Below are positions 7,500-55,705 of a stretch of 64,000 nucleotides of DNA, in pieces (positions within the stretch are counted from its first letter, which is position 1; the number at the start of each line of letters is the position of its first letter). Made by a program: the position numbers and the translations under genes. This stretch comes from Hemitrygon akajei (Eukaryota): NCBI RefSeq assembly GCF_048418815.1, contig NC_133154.1, positions 388,043 to 452,042 of the forward strand. Direction: 5' to 3'. The notes below the pieces were generated by a model. The model was given only the letters and a program-made list of their open reading frames with translations, had not been told where the DNA came from and ran no database searches.

Positions 7500-8800
7500 T
7501 GTGGTCGTTTGGAGTATTTAGGCCTCTCCATAAACTTCCAAAAGGCATTTGACAAGGTCCCACACCAAAGATTATTACTTAAAGTAAAAAATCATGGGAT
7601 TGGGGATAATATTCTGGCATGGGTGGAGGATTGGCTTTCTAACAGAAAACAGAGAGTTGGGATAAATGGTTTATTCTCAGACTGGCAGTTGGTGACTAGT
7701 GGTGTTCCGCAGGGGTCGGTGTTGGGACCCCAACTCTTTACAATCTATATTAATGATTTGGAGAAAGGGACTAAGTGCAACGTATCGAAGTTTGCTGATG
7801 ACACAAAGATGGGAGGGAGTGTAATGAGTGCGGAGGACATTGAAACCCTGCAGGGGGACATAGATAGGCTGAGTGATTGGGCAGAAATTTGGCAGATGAA
7901 ATATAATACTGACAAGTGTGAGGTCTTGCACTTTGGCAGGAAAAATAATAGAGCAAGTTATTATCTAAATGGAGAGAAACTGGAAAGTGCTTCTGTGCAA
8001 AGGGATCTGGGGGTCCTGGTGCAGGAAACACAAAAAGTTAGTATGCAAGTGCAGCAGGTGGTCAAGAAGGCCAATGGAATGCTGGCTTTTATTGCTAGGG
8101 GGATGGAGTATATGAACAGGGAGGTCTTACTGCAGTTGTACTGGGTATTGGTGAGACCACACCTGGAGTACTGTGTGCAGTTCTGGTGTCCATATTTAAG
8201 AAAGAACATACTGGCTCTCGAGGCAGTGCAGAGAAGGTTCACTAGGTTAATTCCGGGGATGGGTGAGTTGATGTATGATGAGAGGTTGAGTAGATTGGGA
8301 CTCTACTCATTGGAGTTCCGAAGAATGAGAGGCGATCTTATTGAAACATATAAGATTGTGAAGGGGCTTGATCGGGTGGATGCGGGGAGAATGTTCCCAT
8401 TGATGGGTGAAACTAGGACTAGGGGGCATAATCTTAAAATAAGGGGATGCCGTTCCAGGACTGAGATGCGGAGAAATTTCTTCACTCAGAGGGTAGTGGG
8501 GCTGTGGAATTTACTGCCCCAGAGAGCTGTGGAAGCTACTACACTCAATAAATTCAAAACGGAGATAGACATTTTCCTGGATAAAAATGGCATTAGGGGA
8601 TACAGTGAGCGAGCAGTTAAGTGGACATGAGGCTAGGTTTAGATCAGCCATGTGATCTCCTGGACCAGTTTTCGATAGCCTGGATGGGTCGGAGAGGAAT
8701 TTTCCAGATTTTTTCTCCTCAATTAGCAAATCGGTTTTTTTTCCTCGGGTGATCACATGGGTTTGGGCGGGATGAATAATAAAATAAAATGGGCGGCATG
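7500..8800 (+). mobile_element. CR1-like LINE 3' half; the 373-aa open ORF2 segment at 7509..8630 covers the RT C-terminal half
   Basis: The translation runs YLDFQKAFDKVPH ... FADDTK ... CEVLHFG ... LVRPHLEYCVQFW ... GLYSLEFRRMRGDLIETYKI ... RGHNLKI ... RRNFFTQRVV.LWN.LP with no frameshift. Confidence 0.8.
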
Positions 8801-15060: not shown

Positions 15061-16119
15061 TTATTGACCCCTTCCTGTTTCTAATTTTACCCACAGAGAC
15101 TCCGTAGACAATCCCTCCATGACTTCCTGTTTTTCTGCAGCCCTGACACTATCTCTGATCAGCAGTGCCACACCCCCCACCTCTTTTGCCTCCTTCCCTG
15201 TCCTTTCTGAAACATCTGAAGCCTGGCACTCTAAGTATCACTGAGTCTGTGTAATGGTCACAACATCATAGCTTCAAGTACCTATCCAGGCTCTAAGCTC
15301 ATCCGCTCCTTGCATTAAAGTAAACACATCTCAAACTATCAGTCTGAGTGCATCAAAAGTCTTTCCCGAGGGTACAGAGTCCTAAATGAGGATGGGATGT
15401 TTGACAGTCTTTTCCCGAGGGTAGAAGGGTCCAAGATCTGTTTAAGGTGGGGGAATGAGGGATTTCAAAGGGATTTAAGCAATAGTCTATGCAACAAGCT
15501 GCCATAGGAAGTGGTTGAGGCAACTAAACTGTATCATTGAAGAAGTTCTTGAATAGGTACAGGGAGGGTGGGGCGTTAGAGGAACTCAGCAGGTCGGGCA
15601 GCATCTACGAAAAGGAGTAACCAGATGACATTCTTGAAGAGTCAGCTCAAAACGCAAATGCTTATTCATTCCCGACCTGCTGAATTCCTCCAGCATTTTG
15701 TGTCTGATGGTTTGGATTTCTAGCATCTGTAGAATTTCTCGTGTTGAGTTACCGGACGAAACTGTGATGTATCTGATAAGATAGTGCATCCGCAGAATCG
15801 TTTCGTTTCGCTCTGTCTCTACAGAGAGAACCGTCCCAACCTCTCCCGCTTCTCCCCATTACATCGCGCAGAGCTTCAGACCAGGAAACCTCTGCAGAGG
15901 ACAATCTCCTCTGCATCTTTTCCAACACAACAAATGCATTCCCATAACAGACCACTATTTGCTCCTTTCCATAGATGCTGCCTGGCCTGCAAAGTCCTCC
16001 ACATTTTGCATGCGCTGATTAATTCAGACATTTGCAGAAGCTCTTGTTTAGCACTATGATTCCCCACAACCTGCTGTGCGGAACTGATATTCTCAAGTGC
16101 GTGTGTCGGAAGGATTATT

Positions 16120-17260
16120 AAAAGCGCAGGAGAAAATATACGGAAGTGGGCGAATGAGGTCTCTTACGCCCCCCTCCGGCGCCGAGTTTCCGCTTCCGGC
16201 CGGGAGGGAGGCCGAGGCCTGAGGGCCTGATAGGAGCCTCGGGACTCGCGGCGGCGGCGATGAGGCGGGAACCGGGTCCGTGAGGAGAGGGTGCCTCAGC
16301 GAAGCAAGGGCAGGGAGGGAGGGAGGGAGCTGGGTTCCTCTGGAGAGGAATGGAGCTTGCGATGAGGGGGGAGGGGAGAACGGAGTGTTTGTCAGTTGAG
16401 GGGAGGGAAGGTGGGAAAGGAAGGCATTTCCCAGCCTCCATTGAGAGAGGGATGGGAAAGAGGGTGCTCCCTCAAGGAGGGAGTTAGAGGGAAGAGGAGG
16501 TGACGTAGGGAAGGAGAGGAGGGGATTCTCCTAGTATGAATGAGGGAGGAAGGGATGAGGGATTGAGGGGAAGGACCGAGGTTGAGGGTAGAAGGGGAGA
16601 GGATTCCCCTGGTGAGGATGGGGGAGGAAGTGAGGGAACGAGAGGGCGGAGATTCCCTTAGAGTGGAGGCCTATTCAGGGGTCGGAGTTCCTCCATTGAG
16701 GAAGTTTGGAGTAGGGAGAGGCACCACCTAGTGAGGGAAGAGGAAGTGACAGGGATGGAGGTAAAGGAGGAGGTGCCCCTATATAACCCTGTCCCTTCTG
16801 TCCCTCCTTGCAGGCGCGCTCGAGTGTAACGGCTACAGCGCAGAGCAGGATCCGGACACTCCCTCTGGCGCCCACCTCCCTGCACATCATCGATCCGCTG
16901 ACCCCTCCTTGACTGCCAGGTTCTGCAGGGGAATCGAGCTTCCGGCCGGAGGTGGAGGAGGAGGGGGCGGAGGGTACTTCCGAGGCCGGAGCCCAGGCTG
17001 GAGAGCACAGGGGCCAGAGGGGAAGGGCCGCCCGTCTCCCAGGCGCTGTGAGAGACCCCTGGGGGGGCTGGCGCGGCGATGGAGGGGACGGGAGGGAGAT
17101 GTCACTCCCCCTGGCCTGGGTGCCATCTTCCACAATCGATGGGGTCTTTCCTTCATCCATGAGCAGGGAGGCAAAGGGGCTCGCAGCCCACACGTTGTGC
17201 ATGGACACAGCTGGCGGGGAGCAGACGATGGGGCCCTGGCACACTATTTCTCCACAGGTG
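16120..17260. promoter_or_regulatory. CpG island, candidate promoter and first exon region
   Basis: This is the only CpG-dense, GC-rich non-repeat block in the window (ccggcgccgag, cgcggcggcggcgatg, gcaggcgcgctcgag). It ends in a consensus 5' splice site CAG|GTGAGT at 17257/17258 (+). A minus-strand donor GGC|GTAAGAG lies at about 16163. Confidence 0.5.
16909..17257 (+). other. Candidate first exon of an unidentified + strand gene; the 5' end is not defined
   Basis: The ORF is open to a perfect donor CACAG|GTGAGT. The Gly/Arg-rich translation matches no protein I can name. Confidence 0.3.
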
Positions 17261-17271
17261 AGTTGAACATA

Positions 17272-17790
17272 GAGTGAAGCTACCTCCACACCGTCCCATC
17301 ACACACTTCTGGGGTCAAACACAGAGTGAAGCTCCCTCCACACCGTCCCATCACACACTTCTGGGGTCAAACACAGAGTGAAGCTCCCTCCACACCGTCC
17401 CATCACACACTCCCAGAATCTGAAGCAGAGTGAAGCTCCCTCCACACCATCCCATCATGCACTTCTGGGGTCAAACACAGAGTGAATCTCCCTCCACACT
17501 GTCCCATCACACACTTCTGGGGTCAAACACAGAGTGAATCTCCCTCCACACTGTCCCATCACACACTTCTGGGGTCAAACACAGAGTGAAGTTCCCTCCA
17601 CACCGTCCCATCACACACTTACAGGGTCAGACACAGAGTGAAACTCCCTCCACACCGTCCCATCAGACACTCCCGGGGTCAGACACAGAGTGAAACTCCC
17701 TCCACACCGTCCCATCACACACTCCCGGGGTCAGACACAGAGTGAAGCTCCCGTCACACACTCCCAGGGTCAGACACAGAGTGAGGCTCC
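17272..17790. repeat. 52-bp minisatellite, about 10 copies
   Basis: The unit is caccgtcccatcacacacttctggggtcaaacacagagtgaagctccctcca. It begins 15 bp after the candidate donor at 17257. Confidence 0.85.
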
Positions 17791-26620: not shown

Positions 26621-27320
26621 AGTTTGCCGAGGGTTTTAATGATATGCCAAATCCCTGCAGACTCCTGAGGAAGTAGACTCTATCATGCCTTCTTTGCAAT
26701 TATATTTAGATGATAGGTCCAGAACAAGTCCTCTGAGATAGTCTTTATGTATCTGAAAAAAAAACTTCTGGTATCTTCTTTTATATTATTGGCTAGCATA
26801 CCTTCATATTTCATTTTGTCTCCTTATGGCATGTTTAGTTGCCTTCTGTTTTATTGGGGTTGCTTCTTTTGTTTTTGTGCTGTCTTTTACTTCCCTTGTC
26901 AGTTAGTCACATCATCCTCCCTTTAGAATATTATTGTTTTAGCTTCTAAATTCTCCCAGAAATTCCAGTCATTGCTGCTCCACCGTCATCCCTGCTGGTG
27001 GCCCACTCCAATCAACTTTTGTCAGCTCTTCTCTCATGCCTCTGTAATTTCCTTTACTTCACTGTAATACTGATACACCGGACGTTCACTTCTCCTTCTC
27101 CAGCTGCAGGGTGAATGCTATCATGTTATGATCACCACCGACAAAGGATTCCTTTACCTTAAGCTCGCTAATCAATTTTGGTTCATTACAGACCACCTAA
27201 TCCAGGCGTGTACGAGGATAATGTATACAAAATTATGAGAGGTATAGGGCAAATGCAAGCAGGCTTTTACCTTTACAGTTGGGTGGGACTAGAACTTGAG
27301 ATCATGTGAAAGGTGAAATA

Positions 27321-28923
27321 CAGTGGCATGCAAAAGTTTGGGCATCCCTGGACAAAATTTCTGTTACAATGAATAGCTAAGCAAGTAAAAGATTACCTGA
27401 TTTCCAAAAGGCATAAAGTTAAAGATGACACATTTCTTTAATATTTTAAGGAAGATTACATTTTTATTTCTCTTTTAGTTTTAAAATAACAAAAAAAAGG
27501 AAAAGGGCCCGAAGCAAAAGTTTGGGCACCCTGCATGGTCAGTACTTAGTAATGCCTCCTTTGGCAAGTATCACAGCTTGTAAATGCTTTCTGTAGCCAG
27601 CTAAGAGTCTTTCAATTCTTGTTTGGGGGATTTTTGCCCATTCTTCCTTGCAAAATGCTTCTAGTTCTGTGAGATTCTTGGGCCGTCTTGCATGCACTGC
27701 TCTTTTGAGGTCTATCCACAGATTTTTGATGATGTTTAGGTCGGGGGACTGTGAGGGCCATGGCAAAACCTTCAGCTTGCGCCTCTTGAGGTAGTCCATT
27801 GTGGATTTTGAGGTGTGTTTAGGATAATTATCCTGTTGTGGAAGCCATCCTCTTTTCATCTTCAGCTTTTTTACAGATGGTGTGATGTTTGCTTCCAGAA
27901 CTTGTTGATTGAATTCATTCTTCCCTCTACCAGTGAAATGTTCCCCGTGCCACTGGCTGCAACACAAGCCCAAAGCATGATCGATCCACCCCCATGCTTA
28001 ACAGTTGTTGAGGTGTTCTTTTCATGAAGTTCTGCACCCTTTTTTCTCCAAACATACCTTTGCTCATTGCAGCCAAAAAGTTCTATTTTAACTTCATCAG
28101 TCCACAGGACTTGTTTCCAAAATGCATCAGGCTTGTTTAGATGTTCCTTTGCAAACTTCTGACGCTGAATTTTGTGGTGAGGACGCAGGAAAGGTTTTCT
28201 TCTGATGACTCTTCCGTGAAGGTTATATTTGTGCAGGAGTCGCTGCACAGTAGAACAGTGCATCACCACTCCAGAGTCTGCTAAATCTTCCTGAAGGTCT
28301 TTTGCAGTCAAATGGGGGTTTTGATTTGCCTTTCTAGCAATCCTACAAGCAGTTCTCTCAAAGTTTTCTTGGTCTTCCAGACCTCAACTTGACCTCCATC
28401 ATTCCTGTTAACTGCCATTTCTTAATTACATTACTAACTGAGGAAATGGCTACCTGAAAACACTTTGCTATCTTCTTTTCACCTTCTCCTGCTTTGTGGG
28501 CATCATTTATTTTAATTTTCAGAGTGCTAGGCAGCTGCTTAGAGGAGCCCATGGCTGCTGATTGTTGGAACAAAGTTTGAGGAGTCAGGGTATTTATAAA
28601 GCTTTGAAATTTGTATCACCTAGCCTTTCCTAACAATGACTGAACAAGCCATAGTCCTAACAAGTTAATTAAGGTCTGAGACCTTGGTAAAGATATCTGA
28701 GAGCTCAAATCTCTTGGGGTGCCCAAACTTCTGCATGGTGCTCCTTTCCTTTTTTTCCCACTCTAAAATTGTACAAAACAAAAATAATACACTAATCTTG
28801 CTTAAAATGTTAGAAAGAATGTTTCATCTTTAACTTTATGACTTTTGGAGATCAGTTCCTCTTCTACTCACTTCACAGTAACAGAAATTTTGACCGGGGT
28901 GCCCAAACTTTAGCATGCCACTG
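27321..28923 (-). mobile_element. Tc1-like DNA transposon with TIRs and a TA TSD; the transposase is a pseudogene with frameshifts
   Basis: The TIRs are cagtggcatgcaaaagtttgggca and tgcccaaactttagcatgccactg. Internal direct repeats of gcaaaagtttgggcaccc are present. TA duplications lie at 27319..27320 and 28924..28925. Minus ORFs at 28358..28573, 27871..28311 and 27539..27973 give the HTH and DDE domains (WTDE, SPDLN). The element sits inside a CR1 3' tail spanning 27180..29440. Confidence 0.85.
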
Positions 28924-29844
28924 TATTTAAAGGGAACTTTTTCACTCAGGGTGAGGTGTGATTTAAAAGTTTGAATGGGTACATGGGTGGGAGGAATATC
29001 GAAGGCTATAGTCTGGTTGCAGGCAATGGTCTGAAGGGTGATGAGAGATGTACAATAAGAGGCATTGGTAGAGTGGGCAGGGCAGAAATAGCTTACAGGA
29101 GAGGGAATAATTTTGAGGTGATTGGAAGAAAGTATGGGGGGGATGTCAAGAGGGAGGTTTTGTACAGAGTGGTGGGTGTGTGGAACACCCTTCCAAGGGG
29201 TGGTGAGAGGCAGATGCATTAGGGACATGTAAGAGACTCACAGACAGCATATTGATGCAAGAAAAGGAGACAATGTTGGAGGGAAGGGTCTTGTTGATTA
29301 AAAGGTCAGCACATTTTGGAATATTATTGCATACAATTCTACGTTCTTAACTCCCAAATAAAGTAGAGGCACTGGCATTGATCAGTTAGGGCCAGGACAG
29401 GTCCTCGGAGACCTTGAGTAACACACACAAAATGCCAGAGGAATGCAGCAGGTCAGGCAGCATCTATGGAGGGGAAAAGCAGTTGCTGTTCTGGGCCAAG
29501 ACCCTTCTTCCAGCATGTGCAAAATCTTGTTTGTCCTGAGATGCTGAAGCCTTGGAACTTGAAGCCCACTCTTTACACCGCATCTTTTAGCCAAAAAGAT
29601 ATCCACCTGTACTTTCCTCATGAATCTAACTCACAATTCTTTTTGTATTATTCTGTTTGATTCAAACTTTTAACTTTTTTTTATATCTTGCACTGGATTG
29701 CAGCTGAGAAACTACAAACTTTAGGGTATCTGTTAGTGATAATTATTCTGATTGGGAACATCTTTAGCCGCCTTGTGCTCTGTGAAGCCGAACACCCTGC
29801 TTTTCCTCACTATGGTCTCACACTTCCCTCTTCTCTCATTACAG

Positions 29845-38411: not shown

Positions 38412-38762
38412 AGCAGGAATACCGGCCTGACACCACCCCCATCCCTTCCCCTGTGCACCTGGATCTGATCCTGGCCTGACCCCACCCCCATCCCTTCCCC
38501 TGTGCACCTGGATCTGATCCTGGCCTGACACCACCCCCATCCCTTCCCCTGTGCACCTGGATCTGATCCTGGCCTGACACCACCCCCATCCCTTCCCCTG
38601 TGTACCTGGATCTGATCCTGGCCTGACACCACCCCCATCCCTTCCCCTGTGCACCTGGATCTGATCCTGGCCTGACACCACCCCCATCCCTTCCCCTGTG
38701 CACCTGGATCTGATCCTGGCCTGACACCACCCCCATCCCTTCCCCTGTGCACCTGGATCTGC
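38412..38762. repeat. 49-bp minisatellite, about 7 copies
   Basis: The unit is ggatctgatcctggcctgacaccacccccatcccttcccctgtgcacct. Its first unit is the intron start of the KIF22 exon 38753..38936. The Gly/Arg-rich ORFs in the six-frame track here are artefacts of the repeat. Confidence 0.85.
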
Positions 38763-38936
38763 CGCCGGCTCTCCTCCAGCTTCCTGAGGAGTTCCTGCCT
38801 CTCGGCCTTGGGTGTGCCCAGCACAGGCAAGCCACTCCGACCCTGTGTGCGCAGCAGGTCCTCTAGCTTCGACAGACGCTCCATCACATCCGGCCCGTAC
38901 ACCTCACTGTTCAGTTCCTCTGGTTTCAGCAGTGGA
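38753..38936 (-). CDS. KIF22: KIF22 coiled-coil and stalk exon (PLLKPEELNSEVYGPDVMERLSKLEDLLRTQGRSGLPVLGTPKAERQELLRKLEESRRQIQ)
   Basis: Acceptor tctttccccactcgctgatctctggcag, donor CAG|GTGCAC, phase 2 to 0. It aligns with the Kid segment [32 protein letters not shown]. Confidence 0.7.
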
Positions 38937-39068
38937 CTGCCAGAGATCAGCGAGTGGGGAAAGAGCAGGTCTAGTTATCATCCTGGCTGAGGACACAGCT
39001 CCACCTACCTTCAAACTCAAAGTAAATTTATTATCAAAGTACTGTATGTTTTTATATATATATATATA

Positions 39069-39933
39069 CCGTAGATTCCGGATTTTAAGCCTCTACTTTT
39101 TTCCCACATTTTGAACAGCTTTGAACTTTGCGGCCTTTAAAACGGAGCGGCTAATGTATTATTTTTTTTCATGCCGGCCGAAAACATTTTGCCTCGTAAC
39201 AGTAGACCAATAAAATTGATGAGTAGTTCACAGAGGTCCAATGAAATTGTACGATAAATCAAGCGCACTTTCACAATTAAATTATTGTAAATCAGTCATT
39301 TGTACTCACCCTCATCAACATGGAAAACACTCGAAGAAAAGCATTGTGCTGCCTTTATGGCAGTTATTTAGTTTATAATATTTTCGCTTAGTAATTCATT
39401 TTCTAGTTAAAGTTAGAAGAGTTTTAACTATATTTGTTTTCTGTACTACATCGCGGGATGCTATGACGTCACACCTGGTTTCGCCGCGTCTTGTGGGAAA
39501 ACGCCGGTTTGCGATAAAACGGGACGGCGGGGGTCGAGCGGCGGAGCGAAAACGCTGCTTTTAAGTTAAAGGCGATCAATAACTTTTCCTGGTAGGCTGC
39601 AGTATATATATTTTTTACCAGTCGTTAGGAGATATTGGAATGTTGTTCAGTAAAAAAGTATACGCAACGTATATTTAAAAGTAGCCGTGTTACGGGCACG
39701 GTTCGAAAAAAAGCATTTGCAATATGTATTTGTTTTTGTTACCATATGGATTTAATTAAAAGTTAAAAAATCCTCACGTGTAATATCTTTCTGTGTAAAT
39801 ATCTCATATTACAACGTGGGACACCTGCGGCCGAAAATCCGGTGCGGCCTTTACAAGTAAAAAATTGATTTTATTTCTAAAATTAGAGCCAGCGGCTTTT
39901 AATCAGGTGCGCTCTGTAGTCCGGAATCTACGG
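39069..39933. mobile_element. 865-bp non-autonomous TIR DNA transposon (MITE-like) inserted in a (TA)n microsatellite
   Basis: Perfect 14-bp TIRs ccgtagattccgga at 39069..39082 and tccggaatctacgg at 39920..39933. Subterminal ggccgaaaa repeats. No ORF. It is flanked by tatata on both sides. It contains a CpG-dense patch with TGACGTCA at 39464..39471. Confidence 0.65.
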
Positions 39934-40099
39934 TATATATACACACACACACACACACCTTGAGATTCATTTCCTTGCAGGCATTTACAGGAAAAATAAA
40001 GAAATATATTAGAAATTATGAAAAGCTATAAATAGAAAAGACTGGCAAACAGCCAATGTGCAAAACAAAACAAATTGTGCAAATACAAAAAAAGAGAAA

Positions 40100-43000
40100 A
40101 AACTACCGGTAATAATAAATAAGCAATAAATATCAAGAACATCAGTTGTCGCGTACTTGAAAGTGTGTCTGTAGGTTATGGAGACAGTTCAAAGTTGAGG
40201 TCAGGGAAGCTCTCCACACTAGTTCAGCAGCTTGATAGTTGTAGCATAATAATTGTTCCTGAAATTGGTGGAGCAGGGTGGGACCCAAGGTTTCTGTACC
40301 TCCTGCCTGATAGTAGTCATGAGAAGAGAGCATGGCCTAGATGCTGGGGATATTTGCCATTGAGTGAGGGTGTTGTTGTGGCCCTCCTCAACCAGATTAT
40401 CAATCTCCCTCCTATATGCTGATTTGTCACCACCCTTGATTCGGCCAATGACAGTGGTGTCATCAGCAAACTTAAATACAGCATTGGAGCTGTATTCTGT
40501 TGTGATGCTGGGTTGTACAGTAGTTACTGAATAAATCTGGATATAAACATCTCACTGTACAAGTGAAGAACCAATGAAATGGCATCCACTGTTGACCTGT
40601 TGTGACAGTAGGCAAATTGGATAGGAGCCTGCTGTGTATTTACTTCTTCAGTGATATTTGAGTAATATTGTAAATATGTCATTTTAATTGAGCATTCTTT
40701 GTTTTCATAATACATTATGGATTATATGTACAAGTATGTAAACGGCATACATCAATACATCACTATGTCTTACGTCCGTGCCTCACTAAAGTAAAGAAAC
40801 TATGTACATAATTTTACCCTGGGCTCCTGTGTTTTTCTTTCAATTAGTTTTATGGTTTGGAGTTACAAACTGTAACAATGGTGATGAGTAAGTCTTAAAA
40901 TGAGCCTGAGGCAACTGCCTACCTGTTGAAGCGCAGCGTGTCTTCTTCACAAAGGGGAGAAGGAGATGTTTGAATCTCCCCCTCCCCCTCCCCCTTCATA
41001 AGCACAGCAAGACATTCGAGTTAAAAATAAAGCAGAAACCATACAAAATTAACAGGTTCATCAACAGTGAGTACGGGGTGATAAAAATAAATAAAAAGCA
41101 GAAATGGCTGGCTACATCAGAAAGGTAGACATATTTGATTCCACAAAAGATAATGAAACAAAGGAAATAGTCAATGAGAATGAGTGCTAGTTTTGACGAG
41201 TGTAATTGAACACATGCAAAGCACATGTCAGGTGGATAAAAATAAATGGACAACATAGGGAAGAGAAAAAGCTAAAAGTCAAGTTGCAGTTTCAAAAAGA
41301 GCACTAATTTGTACACTGTTGATGAAAAATCTGATGCTGAGAGTGACACAAGACTGGGTAGCCTTGAGATTTACAATGTGAAAACTAGCAATAGACATGC
41401 GTAACAGTGAAATACAATAACCGACAAGCCATGTTGGGCTTGTATGCGGTAAAAACAGGAGGGCCAGTATTGTGGGGTTGTTATTGACTGACACAACTAC
41501 AACCTGGTGGACGGACTTCCAATCATCTGTATGCCACATTCCATGCAATAAATTAAACCTAAGGCAAATTAAGAAAGGTACTGGATGATGCCACAGCAGT
41601 GTTCGGGGGGAGTGGGGGGTTGAAAGGGACTGAACTGCACTGAGCTGAAGCTGTGGGCTTCTGGATCAGTTACGGACTCACTTTTGTGAACTCAGTTCTG
41701 AATGCTATTTGCTTACTTTTATTGTTCACACGATTTGTTTTTTATCTCCTTCTGTTCATTGGGTGTTCAGAGTTCATTTGTTGTGTTGGGTTTTATTGAG
41801 TTACTTTGTTTTGTGGCTGCGTATAAGGAGATGAATCTCAAGGTTGTGCAAAGAATACATACTTTGATAAATTCAGTACTTTGAGCTTTGAAGTACATCA
41901 ATGACACAAGTCATTATGCCACAATGTCATAAGCATGCACCTCACTAACAACCAGTGTGCAAAAGACAACAAACTGAAAGAAATACCAATAACGATAATA
42001 ATATAGTAGTAATAAATATTAAGAACATGAAATGAAGAGTCCTTAAAGTGAGTCCATATGTTGTGGGAACAGTTCAGTGATGGAGTGAGGGAAGTTATGT
42101 CCTCTGGTTCGAGAGCCTGATGGGTGAGGGGTAATAACTGTTCCTGAACCTGGTGAACTGGGACCCAAGGCTTCTCCGCCTTCTCCCTGACGGCAGCACT
42201 GAGAGAGAGCATGTCCTGGGTGGTGGTGAAAAGTGAAGTACACACTCATCTCCCAGCTCAGTGTTTTTCTTTCGGTTAATTTCAGGAGTTACAAAACATA
42301 CCAGAGTCCTTTTTTTCCTAATTCTCATGCTATGCAAAAATCTAACTGGATCTTAGATATATTTAATGAGAGAGCTTCTACTGCTTTCCTGGACAGAGAA
42401 TTCCATAGATTCTCTAAAGATTTGCTTTAATGGTAACACCTACATTGAAACATGCAACACTCTCGAAAAAATGCAGTTCCTCCTCATCTCCGTCAGAAAT
42501 CTACTCCCCCCCCCCCCCAAATCTTGAGGCTATGTCCCTTTGTTCTAGTCAACTTTCCTGCCTCTATCTTATCCATCCCTTTCAGAATGTCATATATTTC
42601 TATAAGATCCCCTCTCATTCTTCTGAATTCCAGTCAGTACAGTCCCAGGTGATTCAATCTCTCCTCATGGGTAGAATCCCTCAGCTCTGGAATCAATCTA
42701 GTGAAACTCCTCTGCAATGGCCCTAGCCACTGTACCTTTTCTCAAGTTAAGACCAGTACCCGTGGTGCAGCCTCACCCCTCCCTGCTCTGAAATTTATTC
42801 CTCGATCTCTGAAGGCCAACCTTCCATTTGCTTTCTTGATAAACGGTTGTATCGGCAGACCAATCTGTGCAATTCAAGCACAAACACTCCTAAGACTCTG
42901 CACAGCAGCATGCTGCAGTTTTTCACTATTTGAATAATAAGCTGATCTTCTATTTGTTTCTTCCCAAGTGGATGACCTATTTATCAACAGTGTACTCCAT

Positions 43001-46700: not shown

Positions 46701-46985
46701 GTTTTCAAGTGTATTTACAGTTTTGGGGGTTTGAACGTCCTGATTTATATTCTCTATATTGTGTTGTGGTTGGTCTGGAGTTTTTTGTTGTGGGGCTTGG
46801 GGAGGATACTAACTTTACATGACTTCAATTTGGGTGCTTTCTCAATTATCTTTTTTGTATTATATTATTATTGTATGTTTATTTTTGCACTGTATTAATT
46901 TTCTTCATTTTGGTTTGGGGTTTTTTTTTCTATCTGTAGTAATGTAGAAAATGCATTTAAAAAACCAATTAAAAAAAAATACTTC
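43750..46985 (+). mobile_element. 5'-truncated L1-like LINE: ORF2 RT and C-terminal domain, 3'UTR and A-rich tail
   Basis: ORFs at 44199..44837, 44922..45647, 45686..46192 and 46092..46637 carry [36 protein letters not shown] and YADDI. The 3' end carries an A-rich tail (ccaattaaaaaaaaat). Confidence 0.8.
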
Positions 46986-48805
46986 TCAGCCCACTGTCAT
47001 TTGCAAGCTCGAGGAGTTGATCTTCTTCCCGCGCTGACATGGATGATTCACCAGGGACATTCACAAATGGGTCACAGACCCATTCCTTTGCACGTCTTGG
47101 GTCATTTGTGGTTGGGAAGTAACACTTGAATTCTGTCGACAGCGAAGATAGGTGATCGCGTACCAGCTGTGAGAAGGACAGTGCAGCCTCAGTCTCTCCC
47201 AAAATCCCAGCTAATGTTGGGAACATGTCAAATATGCCCCTGTCCACTCGCTGTCCCCACAGTTCCAGTTTGGCTTTGAAAGCAGACACTTTATCTGCCA
47301 ACTTGAAGACAGTTGTCATTCTCCCCTGAAGTGACAAATTGAGTTCATTGTGCGGGCTGAAGATGTCACACAGGTAGGCGAGTTTTGCTATCCACTCCTC
47401 GTCACTGAAGTATACTACCAGTGGTGACTTTTTTCCTGAAAGAAATCTCTAGTGGCTCTCTTAACTCAAAAACCCTGGCCAGGGCTCTCCCCCTTGATAA
47501 CCACCTGACTTCAGTGTGTAAGAGAAGGCGTTTGTGCTCTGCATCCATTTCCTCGCAAAGCTGCTCAAACAGATGTGAGTTAGGGGCTCTTGCTTTGATG
47601 TGATTGATAACTTTAACAACATCACTCAATACGCTGTTAAGATCAGGTGACATTTTTCGGCTAGCCAGCATTTCCCTGTGTATGACACAGTATGTAGACT
47701 GGCATTCAGGAACAACCTCTTTGACTCGGGTAGTGAAACCAGACAGCCGTCCGTCCAGTCATAGCTGAAGCCCCGTCTGTGCATATTCCAACACTGAATG
47801 ACCAGTCCAGTTTGCCTGACATGTAGTCATTCAAAAACTTGGAATAGTTCTGCCCCAGTTGTGTTAGTTGGCAGTGGCAGCGCACACAAAATATCCTCAT
47901 GCACATCATCTTGAAATATATATCACACATAAACCAGCACTGTTGCCTTGTTGTCAACATCGGTAGACTTGTCGACCTGGATGGCATACCATGGTGACTC
48001 GTTAAGCCGTTCCAACAGCTGTGCTTCGATGTCCTCCACTATGTCATTGATTCTCCTTGAAACTGTGGTAGCTGAAAGAGAAACCTGTGCCATCTTGTTA
48101 GCTGCAGCTTTTCCCAACAGTTCACGGCACATGTCCTTGGCAGCAGGCAGAATCAATTTTTCACCAACAGTGAAAGGCTTCTTAGCCTTAGCAATACGGC
48201 TAGCCACTAAGTACGACGCTCTCAGAGCAGCAGCATTTGTGAAGGTGGTGGCTCTCAGCACTTGCTTCTGTCCCGCCTGCTCACGTTTTCTCCGCTCAAA
48301 AAACTCAACAGGTTTGTCTTTAAGTGCAGAGTGTTTGGACTCAAGATGCCACAGCAGTTTTGAGGGCTTCATTGCCTCATTAGACAGCTTGTCTCCACAT
48401 ATCACACACAGGGGGCTGGGAGTGTGGAAGTCACCGGTCGCATTAAAGCCATATTTTATGTACGACTTGTTGTATTTTCTGTTGAAGGAAGCTTTCTTTT
48501 TTTTGCAGTCTCGGCCTCAATTGTCTCTGCGTTATCATCATCGTTAGGCCTTTTATGTCCCCTACCACCTCTTCCAAAGAAACTCTTAAGCGGCGTTTGG
48601 TTTTTACTCATCGAGTAGTTGCAGGTTAATGACCGACTGATGACCTTATGTATGTAATGACCTCGCTTGTGTTCAAGTTCAACAGAGGGCATGACAGGGA
48701 ATGAGGAAAGGTGCAGCTGACTCATATCGTTTCATACCGCCAGATCATATTGTTTCCTCGCGGCCCGGTAGCACATGCTTTGCGGCCCGGTGGTGGGGGA
48801 CCACT
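46986..48805 (-). mobile_element. hAT superfamily transposon with a frameshifted transposase; 5' TIR intact, 3' end truncated by the adjacent L1
   Basis: Minus ORFs at 48456..48725, 47923..48405, 47706..47987, 47402..47671 and 46969..47337 give a ZBED/FAM200-like transposase. The 5' terminus cagtggtcccccaccaccgggcc is RC at 48805. It is the likely parent family of the MITE at 2808..2951. Confidence 0.75.
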
Positions 48806-52758: not shown

Positions 52759-53793
52759 CCTTGAAGAGAGGGGATTGCAATGAAGAACAAGAGTCATGGA
52801 TTGACAGTTATACAGTACAGACACAGGTCCTTTGGCCCAACTCACTCCCACCTTCCCCTAGGCCTCTAACCCATGCCAATCCATGTACTTACCCGGAAAT
52901 GTTTAAACATCGTCAATGTGGCCATCTCAACCACTGTTTCTGGCAACTCATTCCAAATAAACACCACCCTCTGCATGAAGAAGTTGCCACTGATGGCCCT
53001 TTTAAATCACTCTCCTCTGATCTTAAACTGCTGCCCTATGTTTTTTAGCACCCCCCCCCCCCCCAAGAAACAGGCTCTGTGCAATCTTTGCCCTGCATGA
53101 TCTTATAAAACAAGTAGGCCATTTGGCCCATCGAGTCCGCTCCGCCACTCCACCGTGGCTGATTTACAATCCCTCTCATCTCCACCCTCCTGCCTTCTCC
53201 CCGTAACATTTGACACCCTGACTAATCAAGAACCTATCTACCTCCACTTTGAATATACCTAATGACTTGACCTCCATTGCTGACTGCGGCAATGAATTCC
53301 ACAGATTCACTACCCCCTGGCAGAAGAAATTCCTCCTCATCTCTGTTCTAAAGAGGCACCCCTCTATTCTCCGGTCATAGACTCCCCTAGTATAGAAATC
53401 ATCTCTATAGCCACTCTGTCTGGGCCTTTCATTATTCTAAACTCAAGTGAGTACGGGTCCAGAGCCATCAAACACTCCTCATATGTTTCATTCCCTGGAT
53501 CATTCTCATGAACCTCCTCTGGACCCTCTCCAATGCAGAATTGCTCAGAATACTTCAAGCATGGAATGACCAATGACTTACAGTGCTATAAAAAGTATTC
53601 ACTACCGCCCCTTGGAAGTTTTTATACTTTAATCATTTCACAATATTAAATCACAAGTGCATTTAATTTGCATTTTTTGATACTAATCAACAAAAAAAGA
53701 CTGTTTCAAGTCAAAGTGAAAACCAATCTAGAATAATTAGAAATATAAAACACAAAATAATTGACTGCATAAGTATTCAGCCCTTTAATTCAA

Positions 53794-54088
53794 ATGAGAG
53801 GACATGATTTGAGAGTTAGGGGGCAAAAGTTTAAGGGAAACACGAGGGGGTATTTCTTTACTCAGAGAGTGATAGCTGTGTGGAATGAGCTTCCTGTAGA
53901 AGTAGTAGAGGCCAGTTCAGTTGTGTCATTTAGGGTAAAATTGGATAGGTATATGGACAGGAAAGGAGTGGAGGGTTATGGGCTGAGTGCGGGTAGGTGG
54001 GACTAGGTGAGATTAAGAGTTCGGCACAAACTAGGAGGGCCGAGATGGCCTGTTTCCGTGCTGTGATTGTTATATGGTTATAATATGA
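53794..54088 (+). repeat. CR1 3' tail copy A; inverted partner of 54830..55130
   Basis: It is about 96% identical over about 290 bp to the reverse complement of 54830..55130. Confidence 0.7.
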
Positions 54089-54425: not shown

Positions 54426-55705
54426 GACACTTGGAATGAAATTTTTAAATTGGTTAATACTTCATCGTTATGCACCTGTCATTCCCTTCTACAATTTAAA
54501 GTGGTTCATACAGCCCATATGTCTGAAGGTAAGCTGTCTCATTTTTATTCGGATATATCTCCCTATTGTGATAGATGTAATAATGGAGAAGCTTCACTAA
54601 TCCATATGTTTTGGACTTGTCTGAGTCTTGAAAAATATTGGAAGGAAGGTGCTTTTTAAACTAAATTTTAAACCTAATCCTTTGACTGTCTTATTTGGTA
54701 TTGTCGGAGGAAATTATATTATTTTGGAGACACATGATTTGCATAATTTGGCCTTTATTTCTCTTATAGCTAGGAGGGCATTGTTGCTTAAGTGGAAGGA
54801 TGCCACTTCACCCACTCATACTCATTTCATGATGTTATATAACCATATAACAATCACAGCATGGAAACAGGCCATTCCGGCCCTCCTAGTCCGTGCCGAA
54901 CTCTTAATCTCACCTAGTCCCACCTACCCACACACAGCCCATAACCCTTCACTCCTTTCCTGTCCATATACCTATCCAATTTTACCTTAAATGACACAAC
55001 TGAACTGGCCTCTACTACTTCTACAGGAAGCTCATTCCACACAGCTATCACTCTCTGAGTAAAGAAATACCCCCTCGTGTTTCCCTTAAACTTTTGTCCC
55101 CTAACTCTCAAATCATGTCCTCTCGTTTGAATCTCCCCTACTCTCAATGGAAACAGCCTATTCACGTCAACTCTATCTATCCCTCTCAAAATTTTAAATA
55201 CCTCAATCAAATCCCCCCTCAACCTTCTACGCTCCAATGAATAGAGACCTAACTTGTTCAATCTTTCTCTGTAACTTAAGTGCTGAAACCCAAGTAACAT
55301 CCTAGTAAATCAATTATGTCTTGCTTAAATTTAGAGAAGATTCACCATTCAATTTCTGAACCTAGACAAGATTTTTTAAACATTGTGGGGACCTTTTTTG
55401 AATTACTTTCAAAATCTTTGATTTGCTATTAAGCACAGATGTTGGCTAATAATATGTTTTACTATATGTTAAGGATTTTTTCCTTTTCTTTTTTTTTAAA
55501 CCAAACAGCTGTATTTTTTTTCTGGTAGTAGGTTTAGATATTTTGTATAATAAAATTATTTTTTCCAATTTTATGTTTAAATTTAATCTATATGGATATG
55601 GGGTAATTACACTTCATCTGTGATTTCAATATATTGTAATTGAAATATATTATATATCTTACTGTACCCTGTATTCTTTTATGTAAGAAATTAATAAAAA
55701 TATTG
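54426..55705 (+). mobile_element. 5'-truncated L1-like 3' fragment inserted in the Tc1 element
   Basis: The ORF at 54171..54659 reads SLCTCHSLLQFKVVHTAHMSEGKLSHFYSDISPYCDRCNNGEASLIHMFWTC. It is homologous to 46130..46330 of the large L1 copy. The A-rich tail is aataaaaatattgaaaaagaaaaag. An approximately 125-bp duplicated Tc1 segment flanks it. Confidence 0.65.
54830..55300 (-). mobile_element. CR1 3' tail copy B, nested in the L1 fragment
   Basis: The ORF at 54914..55300 (-) reads GLYSLERRRLRGDLIEVFKILRG...RGHDLRVRGQKFKGNTRGYFFTQRVIAVWNELP. Confidence 0.7.

What the first reader, a model, noticed from the sequence alone, without database searches (positions are those of the whole stretch)
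39069..39933. Undescribed 865-bp TIR element carrying a CpG-dense patch with a perfect CRE palindrome
Perfect 14-bp TIRs ccgtagattccgga. Subterminal ggccgaaaa repeats. No coding capacity. It sits in a (TA)n tract inside a KIF22 intron. The otherwise AT-rich element contains a 120-bp CpG-dense segment at 39450..39570 that includes TGACGTCA, the consensus cAMP-response element. This could donate a regulatory module. The TIR sequence does not match the Tc1 or hAT termini in this window, and I cannot recognise the superfamily.
Basis: seen in the sequence. Interest (0 to 1): 0.55.

Follow-up and report, generated by a model that had tools for sequence, protein, structure and literature searches.

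The report
Young non-coding TIR transposon in KIF22 intron
An 865-bp non-coding DNA transposon copy with perfect 14-bp inverted ends sits in a TA repeat inside a KIF22 intron of what looks like a stingray genome; it appears recently inserted, is otherwise an ordinary kind of element, and its cAMP-response motif is no more than chance would give.

Summary
Perfect 14-bp inverted ends (39069-39082 and 39920-39933) bound an 865-bp segment with no coding capacity. It interrupts a (TA)n(CA)n microsatellite, 132 bp upstream of a 3' splice site of KIF22 (minus strand).

A 14-bp inverted repeat alone is not significant: 63% of simulated windows contain one. The case rests on three things coinciding: the ends, identical TA flanks, and a sharp change in composition exactly at those ends.

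- **CpG content:** CpG observed/expected (o/e) is 1.47 inside the element, 0.23 in the flanks and 0.29 window-wide. The whole element, not only the 120-bp patch, has escaped CpG decay. This is best explained by a recent insertion of a non-autonomous cut-and-paste transposon.
- **Superfamily:** It cannot be assigned from one copy. The target-site duplication (TSD) could be 2, 4, 6 or 8 bp. A TA target (Tc1/mariner-like) is mildly favoured. hAT terminal, piggyBac, PIF/Harbinger and ISL2EU defining features were tested and not met.
- **CRE motif:** TGACGTCA is a post-hoc match, and the patch narrowly misses CpG-island criteria.
- **Copy number:** The decisive test could not be run, because no host genome, Repbase or Dfam was accessible. 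No copy turned up anywhere I could search.

Verdict: a real but ordinary element of modest interest.

The parts
39069..39933 (.). Whole 865-bp non-autonomous TIR element
   Evidence: It is bounded by perfect 14-bp TIRs. It has no ORF longer than 61 aa and no Pfam, Rfam or tRNA hit. GC is 38.5%, with 47 CpG, CpG o/e 1.47 and CpG/GpC 1.04, against 0.14-0.71 for every other feature tested.
39069..39082 (+). Left terminal inverted repeat CCGTAGATTCCGGA
   Evidence: Similarity between the two ends stops at 14 bp.
39920..39933 (-). Right terminal inverted repeat (reverse complement of the left)
39053..39068 (.). Left flank (TA)8: target microsatellite and left copy of the TSD
   Evidence: The last 2, 4, 6 or 8 bases equal the first 2, 4, 6 or 8 bases of the right flank.
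39934..39941 (.). Right flank (TA)4, the right TSD copy (up to 8 bp), followed by (CA)n from 39942
   Evidence: Odd TSD lengths are excluded by the TA phase.
39450..39570 (.). CpG-dense patch (17 CpG, GC 57%, o/e 1.81), possibly a remnant of the parent element's promoter or 5' region (inferred)
   Evidence: It fails the 200-bp CpG-island criteria.
39464..39477 (.). TGACGTCA (CRE consensus) directly abutting CACCTG (E-box)
   Evidence: This is a motif match only, and statistically post hoc.
39175..39184 (+). Subterminal CGGCCGAAAA, left copy
   Evidence: D14. It is in direct orientation relative to the right copy.
39828..39837 (+). Subterminal CGGCCGAAAA, right copy
   Evidence: D14. GCGGCC occurs 3 times and AAAACG 4 times, all on the + strand.
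39129..39142 (+). TGCGGCCTTTAAAA, left copy of a second subterminal direct repeat
   Evidence: D5. The partner at 39843-39856 is 93% identical.
39843..39856 (+). TGCGGCCTTTACAA, right copy of the second subterminal direct repeat
   Evidence: D5.
38754..38936 (-). KIF22 coiled-coil exon; its 3' splice site lies 132 bp from the element
   Evidence: Minus-strand reading shows the acceptor ...ctctggcag|TCCACTG and the donor CAG|gtgcac. For gene identity.

Best explanation
This is one copy of a non-autonomous, cut-and-paste (class II) DNA transposon. It has no transposase gene.

**Mobilisation.** It would be mobilised in trans by a DDE-type transposase from an autonomous relative. That enzyme would recognise the 14-bp terminal inverted repeats, and probably the CG-containing subterminal motifs (GCGGCC, AAAACG, CGGCCGAAAA). 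This step is inferred.

**Insertion.** The element integrated by a staggered cut into a (TA)n(CA)n microsatellite in a KIF22 intron, duplicating an even-length TA-repeat target of 2-8 bp. The geometry is shown; the exact TSD length is not resolvable.

**Age.** The insertion is evolutionarily recent. Both ends are identical, including 4 CpG sites. The element is also the only segment of the window that has not undergone methylation-driven CpG decay. The CpG data are shown; the age is inferred.

**Superfamily.** This is unresolved. A TA target, as in Tc1/mariner, is the mildly favoured reading (about 40%). An 8-bp TSD, as in hAT and similar superfamilies, comes next (about 20%).

**CpG patch.** The patch with CRE and E-box motifs is most simply a leftover of the parent element's promoter or 5' region, not a demonstrated host regulatory module (inferred).
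For: - **Ends:** Perfect TIRs, the only two matches in the window.
- **Flanks:** Identical TA-repeat flanks extend the perfect inverted repeat to 22 bp.
- **Composition:** An island of distinct composition coincides with the TIRs. The first CpG is at 39070 and the last at 39931, with none between 38951-39070 or 39931-40107. CpG o/e is 1.47 against a window mean of 0.288 (sd 0.138), and the best non-overlapping window scores 0.79. TpG and CpA are 0.80 and 0.95 inside against 1.20 and 1.24 outside.
- **Comparison with other features:** CpG/GpC is 1.04, against 0.14-0.71 for the Tc1, hAT, CR1 and L1 copies, an exon and the candidate CpG island.
- **Controls:** Other 14-bp inverted repeats in the window have no TSD and no contrast in composition.
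- **Non-coding:**. No RNA gene was found.
- **Not contamination:** No match to E. coli, plasmid, phage or viral DNA.
- **Target:** Tc1-family transposases such as Sleeping Beauty prefer ATATATAT centred on the TA target (PMC8934666).
- **Host context:** DNA transposons make up about 7% of a stingray genome (PMC12946260).
Against: - Only one copy was seen. There is none elsewhere in the window, and none in any collection I could search. Mobility and family membership are therefore inferred from structure alone.
- A 14-bp inverted repeat is common by chance.
- The flanking TA 'duplication' is also what any insertion or rearrangement inside a TA microsatellite would show.
- The termini (CCG...CGG) do not match the usual CAG-type ends of Tc1/pogo or the YARNG ends of hAT.
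- High CpG could alternatively reflect protection from methylation rather than youth.
Confidence: 0.78

Rival explanations
1. The element is a hAT-type (or other 8-bp-TSD superfamily: P, Merlin, Novosib, Zisupton) non-autonomous element. It would have inserted at the (TA)8/(CA)n border and duplicated TATATATA.
For: An 8-bp perfect duplication is compatible with the flanks. A 14-bp TIR and short CG-containing subterminal repeats are typical of hAT elements (from established knowledge of Ac/Ds; motifs). A decayed hAT transposase is present in the window.
Against: The terminus CCGTA does not fit the hAT YARNG consensus: it has C rather than A at position 2 and A rather than G at position 5. TATATATA does not fit the weak nTnnnnAn target consensus. 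The TIR has no match near the hAT remnant in the window.
Confidence: 0.2
2. The element is piggyBac-like and inserted at a non-canonical TATA site.
For: The first 7 bases, CCGTAGA, differ at one position from the piggyBac terminus CCCTAGA (recalled from memory, not tested). A 4-bp palindromic duplication TATA is compatible with the flanks. A second inverted motif sits at asymmetric distances from the two ends (I10).
Against: The defining TTAA target is absent. The conserved CCC/GGG terminus is not met. The 7-base resemblance is well within chance.
Confidence: 0.06
3. The segment is not a mobile element. It would be a native, hypomethylated intronic regulatory segment (CpG-island-like, with a CRE) that happens to be bracketed by a chance inverted repeat inside a microsatellite.
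For: 14-bp inverted repeats occur by chance in 63% of simulated windows. CpG retention is what germline-unmethylated regulatory DNA shows. CRE and E-box motifs are present.
Against: - The chance inverted repeat would have to fall exactly on both edges of the CpG-rich domain and directly against identical TA flanks. That is roughly 4^-14 per placement, or about 1e-5 allowing ±50 bp of slack (an estimate by inference).
- GC is only 38.5%, and no 200-bp window meets CpG-island criteria.
- The AT-rich arms also retain CpG.
- Control inverted repeats show nothing similar.
Confidence: 0.04
4. The segment is an assembly or contamination artefact, or a somatic or foreign insertion, rather than germline host sequence.
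For: The composition is foreign to the host: CpG/GpC is 1.04 against 0.14-0.71 or lower elsewhere. The segment is single-copy in all the data available here.
Against: There is no similarity to E. coli, plasmid, phage or viral DNA, and none to prokaryotic DNA beyond a single chance 20-mer. The clean TIR-plus-TSD junction geometry is that of a genuine transposition event, not a chimeric join.
Confidence: 0.04
5. The element has been co-opted: its CRE/E-box patch acts as a cAMP-responsive enhancer or alternative promoter for KIF22 or a neighbouring gene. This could be true in addition to the transposon reading.
For: A perfect TGACGTCA abuts CACCTG within the densest CpG patch.
Against: The motif match is post hoc, and the palindrome count equals expectation. 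A recent insertion leaves little time for co-option. No conservation, chromatin or expression data exist here.
Confidence: 0.07

Closest known systems
Non-autonomous Tc1/mariner-type elements (TA-target MITE-like deletion derivatives)
   Same: TIR-bounded and non-coding. It is flanked by TA, and it inserted in an alternating TA tract, which is the preferred target context of Sleeping Beauty-type transposases (PMC8934666).
   Different: The TIR is only 14 bp and has no inner direct-repeat copies. The terminus CCGTAG is not the usual CAGT/CAGG or YYAGGT. At 865 bp it is larger than typical MITEs. TA cannot be distinguished from 4-, 6- or 8-bp duplications here.
Non-autonomous hAT elements (Ds-like)
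   Same: It has a short TIR (10-25 bp), short CG-containing subterminal repeats, a size under 1 kb, and flanks compatible with an 8-bp TSD.
   Different: The terminal bases do not fit YARNG, and the target does not fit nTnnnnAn.
piggyBac-like elements
   Same: The ends are CC...GG, with one mismatch to CCCTAGA. The target is AT-rich and palindromic. The subterminal inverted motif is asymmetric.
   Different: There is no TTAA target-site duplication, and the third base is G rather than C.
ISL2EU / PIF-Harbinger (PHIS superfamily)
   Same: It has an AT-rich target preference. An AT dinucleotide TSD is formally possible if the TIR is read as 15 bp starting with A.
   Different: The ISL2EU target context A|AT|T is not met, because the flanking bases are T and A. 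The 3-bp TWA duplication of PIF/Harbinger is excluded by the TA phase (PMC4482050).

Membership tests
Class II TIR transposon (generic, non-autonomous) | Terminal inverted repeats at both ends | tested here: met
   Perfect 14-bp TIRs. On their own they are at chance level.
Class II TIR transposon (generic, non-autonomous) | Target-site duplication directly flanking the TIRs | tested here: met
   The flanks are identical for 2, 4, 6 or 8 bp. However, they lie in a TA microsatellite, so the length and specificity are ambiguous.
Class II TIR transposon (generic, non-autonomous) | Multiple genomic copies sharing the same boundaries, or an empty site | not testable with these tools
There is no copy in the window, none in 106 kb of other elasmobranch DNA, and none in the metagenome, viral or prokaryotic scans.
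Class II TIR transposon (generic, non-autonomous) | Absence of a transposase ORF (non-autonomous) | tested here: met
   The longest frame is 61 aa, there is no Pfam hit at E<=10, and there are no protein homologues.
Tc1/mariner | TA target-site duplication | tested here: inconclusive
   TA is present on both sides but cannot be distinguished from longer TA-repeat duplications.
Tc1/mariner | Characteristic termini (CAGT/CAGG for Tc1/pogo, YYAGGT for mariner) and TIRs of roughly 20-30 bp or more, or an IR/DR structure | tested here: not met
   The terminus is CCGTAG, inverted identity stops at 14 bp, and there are no inner repeats of the TIR. The consensus termini are recalled from established knowledge.
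hAT | 8-bp TSD | tested here: inconclusive
   TATATATA on both sides is compatible but not demonstrable.
hAT | Terminal consensus YARNG | tested here: not met
   The terminus is CCGTA.
piggyBac | TTAA target-site duplication and CCC...GGG termini | tested here: not met
   The flanks are TATA and the termini are CCG...CGG.
PIF/Harbinger | 3-bp TWA TSD | tested here: not met
   No odd-length duplication is possible in any register of the TA flanks. The definition is from PMC4482050.
ISL2EU | AT TSD within an A|AT|T target | tested here: not met
   With a 15-bp TIR reading, an AT duplication is possible, but the flanking bases are T and A rather than A and T (PMC4482050).
CpG island (Gardiner-Garden and Frommer) | At least 200 bp, GC >= 50%, CpG o/e >= 0.6 | tested here: not met
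   None of 665 200-bp windows qualifies. The maximum GC is 49.5%, although o/e is 1.64.
Functional cAMP-response element | CREB/ATF occupancy and cAMP-dependent activity | not testable with these tools
   There is only the motif TGACGTCA at 39464.

The most novel reading that the evidence does not exclude
The copy belongs to a currently or very recently active DNA transposon family in a stingray-lineage genome, with termini that fit no curated superfamily. It may have arrived recently, possibly by horizontal transfer. This would explain why, alone among everything in the window, it shows no CpG depletion at all. An intact autonomous partner would then be a new active vertebrate transposon.
Probability: 0.12. 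Interest if true: 0.55.

Novelty: new member of a known kind. Interest (0 to 1): 0.25.

Why it matters
If the family is truly young, it would show ongoing DNA-transposon activity in a cartilaginous fish, and its autonomous partner could be a usable active transposase. The intact-CpG signature is a simple, assembly-free marker for finding such recent arrivals.

As it stands, this is one uncharacterised non-autonomous transposon copy in an intron. The host lineage carries DNA transposons as about 7% of the genome (PMC12946260), so the finding is ordinary. The proposed regulatory role for the CRE has no support beyond a motif match.

Tried and rejected
- **Protein search for other copies:** I concatenated all six-frame ORFs of the element and searched 5.8 billion predicted proteins. 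There were no hits.
- **Exact-pattern DNA scans:** I scanned for both termini and the CRE patch in metagenome, viral and prokaryotic genome collections. The only match was one chance 20-mer in a Bacillota MAG, with no further similarity.
- **Contamination check:** BLASTN against plasmids, phages and E. coli gave no match, which rejects a cloning-host IS element or vector contamination.
- **Literature:** A full-text search for the TIR string found nothing.
- **Other annotation of the element:** Rfam and tRNA scans gave nothing above noise. Pfam on the ten longest frames gave nothing.
- **Orthologous KIF22 introns:** The attempt failed.
- **Sampling other elasmobranch genomes:** I fetched loci via LINE proteins from Chiloscyllium, Hypanus (two loci), Leucoraja and Mobula, 106 kb in total. 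There was no copy and no TIR match, but the sample is far too small to be informative.
- **TIR significance:** I rejected the 14-bp TIR as significant by itself after simulation.
- **Superfamilies ruled out:** PIF/Harbinger, ISL2EU and piggyBac were rejected on target-site grounds.
- **Internal end-like sequence:** I rejected the idea that the internal sequence CTGCAGTATATATA (39597) is an older element end; the match is mostly low-complexity TA.

Full report
**Observation.**
- CCGTAGATTCCGGA at 39069-39082 is matched by its perfect reverse complement at 39920-39933. No other match exists in the window, even with two mismatches.
- The unit is flanked by (TA)8 on the left (39053-39068) and by (TA)4 then (CA)n on the right (39934 onward).
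- CGGCCGAAAA occurs twice, at 39175 and 39828. Both copies are on the + strand, so they are direct rather than inverted repeats. A second direct pair, TGCGGCCTTTA(A/C)AA, lies at 39129 and 39843.
- GCGGCC occurs 3 times and AAAACG 4 times, all on the + strand.
- The longest open frame in any of the six frames is 61 aa. The ten longest frames hit nothing in Pfam at E<=10. Rfam gave only a sub-threshold snoRNA match (20 bits against a gathering score of 95), and there is no tRNA.
- TGACGTCA occurs once in the window, at 39464.

**Host gene and organism.** KIF22 is confirmed on the minus strand.
- A stop-to-stop frame at 58525-58743 matches the C-terminal end of the kinesin motor (PF00225).
- A frame at 36658-36984 matches the helix-hairpin-helix domain HHH_3 (PF12836).
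- The concatenated exon translations retrieve kinesin fragments, one of them named KIF22.
- Reading the minus strand shows the exon at 38754-38936, with acceptor ...ctctggcag|TCC and donor CAG|gtgcac. The element therefore lies in the intron, 132 bp upstream of a 3' splice site.
- The host is a cartilaginous fish. A CR1-type reverse-transcriptase ORF in the window has its best named hits in elasmobranchs.
- Window repeats are 95.7% identical to a Hypanus sabinus locus, 92.9% to Mobula, 80-85% to Leucoraja and about 70-74% to Chiloscyllium. This points to a batoid, probably a myliobatiform ray.

**Is the structure more than chance?** The inverted repeat alone is not.
- First-order Markov simulations of the window give a mean of 1.55 perfect, non-low-complexity 14-mers with an inverted partner within 3 kb. 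63% of simulations have at least one.
- The real window contains several isolated 14-bp inverted repeats that look like chance: 28963/29660, 39957/41831 and 44362/45434.
- The candidate stands out because three independent features coincide.
  - **Flanks:** The ends abut identical TA-repeat flanks, extending the perfect inverted repeat to 22 bp.
  - **Target site:** The flanks are compatible with a target-site duplication.
  - **Composition:** The base composition changes exactly at the ends.
- None of the control inverted repeats has a TSD longer than 1 bp or any contrast in composition.

| Measure | Element | Comparison |
|---|---|---|
| CpG o/e | 1.47 (47 CpG) | 500-bp flanks 0.23; 865-bp windows elsewhere: mean 0.288, sd 0.138, best 0.79 |
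| CpG/GpC | 1.04 | Tc1 copy 0.14, CR1 ORF 0.34, hAT remnant 0.43, L1-like element 0.50, KIF22 exon 0.53, candidate CpG island at 16-17 kb 0.71 |
| TpG o/e | 0.80 | 1.20 outside |
| CpA o/e | 0.95 | 1.24 outside |

- The first CpG is at 39070 and the last at 39931. There are none in the adjoining 119 bp on the left or 176 bp on the right.
- The AT-rich arms are undepleted too: o/e is 1.07 on the left and 1.50 on the right. The 120-bp patch is simply the densest part of an element that has not experienced CpG decay anywhere.
- TpG and CpA, the products of CpG decay, are not in excess inside the element.
- Together with two identical TIRs that preserve four CpG sites, this is best read as a recent insertion copied from a CpG-rich master element.
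- Protection from methylation is the alternative reading. Horizontal arrival is possible but not required, because young active families can keep CpG-rich consensus sequences.

**What kind of element?**
- Because the flanks are alternating TA, only even-length duplications are possible: 2, 4, 6 or 8 bp, in either register.
- PIF/Harbinger (3-bp TWA) is excluded, along with other superfamilies that make odd-length TSDs.
- ISL2EU requires AT within A|AT|T (PMC4482050). The flanking bases here do not fit.
- piggyBac requires TTAA and CCC/GGG ends; neither is met. CCGTAGA does differ by one base from the piggyBac terminus as I recall it, but that is a lead, not a test.
- hAT is compatible in TSD length, TIR length and the presence of subterminal CG-containing motifs. 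Its terminal YARNG consensus is not met.
- Tc1/mariner is compatible in target. Sleeping Beauty prefers ATATATAT centred on the duplicated TA (PMC8934666), which is exactly the context here. However, the 14-bp TIR, the CCGTAG terminus and the lack of inner repeats are atypical.
- Repbase classifies non-autonomous DNA transposons by TSD length plus agreement of terminal positions 1-11 (PMC4482050). That needs many copies and the library, and neither was available here.
- I therefore leave the superfamily open, with these estimates:

| Reading | Probability |
|---|---|
| TA target | about 0.4 |
| 8-bp TSD type | about 0.2 |
| piggyBac-like | about 0.06 |
| Other or unknown | remainder |

**The CRE and the 'regulatory module'.**
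- In Markov simulations of the element, TGACGTCA appears in 0.55% of trials. The motif was chosen after the fact from hundreds of recognisable sites.
- The element contains 5 perfect 8-bp palindromes against 4.9 expected.
- An E-box (CACCTG) abuts the CRE, and CACCTG/CAGGTG occurs three times in the element. This too is a post-hoc observation.
- No 200-bp window meets CpG-island criteria; the maximum GC is 49.5%.
- The simplest reading is that the patch is a remnant of the parent transposon's own promoter or 5' region, retained in an internal-deletion derivative. Any host regulatory role is untested speculation.

**Searches for relatives.**
- There is no second copy in the window.
- All element frames concatenated gave no protein-level match against 5.8 billion proteins.
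- There was no exact match to either terminus or to the CRE patch in the JGI metagenome or IMG/VR viral collections.
- One 20-mer matched a Bacillota MAG. About one such match is expected by chance, and there was no further similarity.
- There was no similarity to plasmids, phages or E. coli genomes, which excludes a cloning-host IS element or vector artefact.
- The TIR string appears in no paper in the library.
- There was no copy in 106 kb of sampled elasmobranch DNA, which is an uninformative sample.
- The decisive test, copy number and boundaries in the host genome, could not be run.

**Verdict.**
- The interpretation as a TIR transposon is well supported structurally (about 0.78), and the CpG analysis strengthens it.
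- The 'undescribed' and multi-copy claims are untested, and the CRE claim is not supported.
- This is a new member of a known kind: a young-looking, non-autonomous DNA transposon copy. The host lineage has DNA transposons as roughly 7% of the genome (PMC12946260).
- Interest is modest (0.25). The most novel reading not excluded is an active or recently invaded family of unrecognised superfamily, to which I give about 0.12.

Noticed in passing
window 38424-38761 (minus-strand gene): A 49-bp tandem repeat (6.9 copies, 98% identical) begins within the last bases of the KIF22 exon and contains its 5' splice site (CAGATCCAG|GTGCAC). The donor is therefore reiterated about 7 times at 49-nt spacing, which is not a multiple of 3. 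It could offer alternative, frame-shifting donors.
   Followed up: partly
window 53783-54082 and 54838-55133: A near-perfect inverted duplication of about 300 bp of a LINE 3' tail brackets about 750 bp. The arms are 95.7% and 94.9% identical to a copy in Hypanus sabinus (L004 14294-14593). This is the best clue to the host lineage.
   Followed up: partly
window 27316-28928: A Tc1-like element with recognisable inverted ends and decayed transposase frames (27539-28311, minus strand). It is strongly CpG-depleted (CpG/GpC 0.14), a useful contrast to the candidate.
   Followed up: partly
window 46969-48547 (minus strand): A decayed hAT/ZBED-like transposase is split over three frames. No terminal inverted repeats could be found around it.
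   Followed up: partly
window 39957-39970 and 41831-41844: An isolated perfect 14-bp inverted repeat, ACCTTGAGATTCAT, lies right beside the (CA)n tract. It has no TSD, and CpG o/e is 0.28 inside. It looks like a chance repeat and serves as a control.
   Followed up: yes
proteins P0056 and P0058: Proteins labelled 'reverse transcriptase family protein' from Proteus mirabilis and Klebsiella pneumoniae, on 1.6-kb contigs, are 56-58% identical to the vertebrate CR1 reverse transcriptase of this window. This is probably vertebrate DNA contaminating bacterial assemblies.
   Followed up: no
L002 (ENA metagenome ERZ23499145, sample SAMN20336530): A 1.5-kb 'metagenome' contig is 96.9% identical over 1131 bp to the CR1 copy at window 7534-8664. 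This suggests host DNA from the same or a closely related ray is present in that sample.
   Followed up: no
window 16000-17300: A GC-rich stretch (GC 60%, CpG o/e 0.54, locally about 1.0 at 16140-16200) lies downstream of the KIF22 3' end. It may be the promoter CpG island of the neighbouring gene.
   Followed up: no
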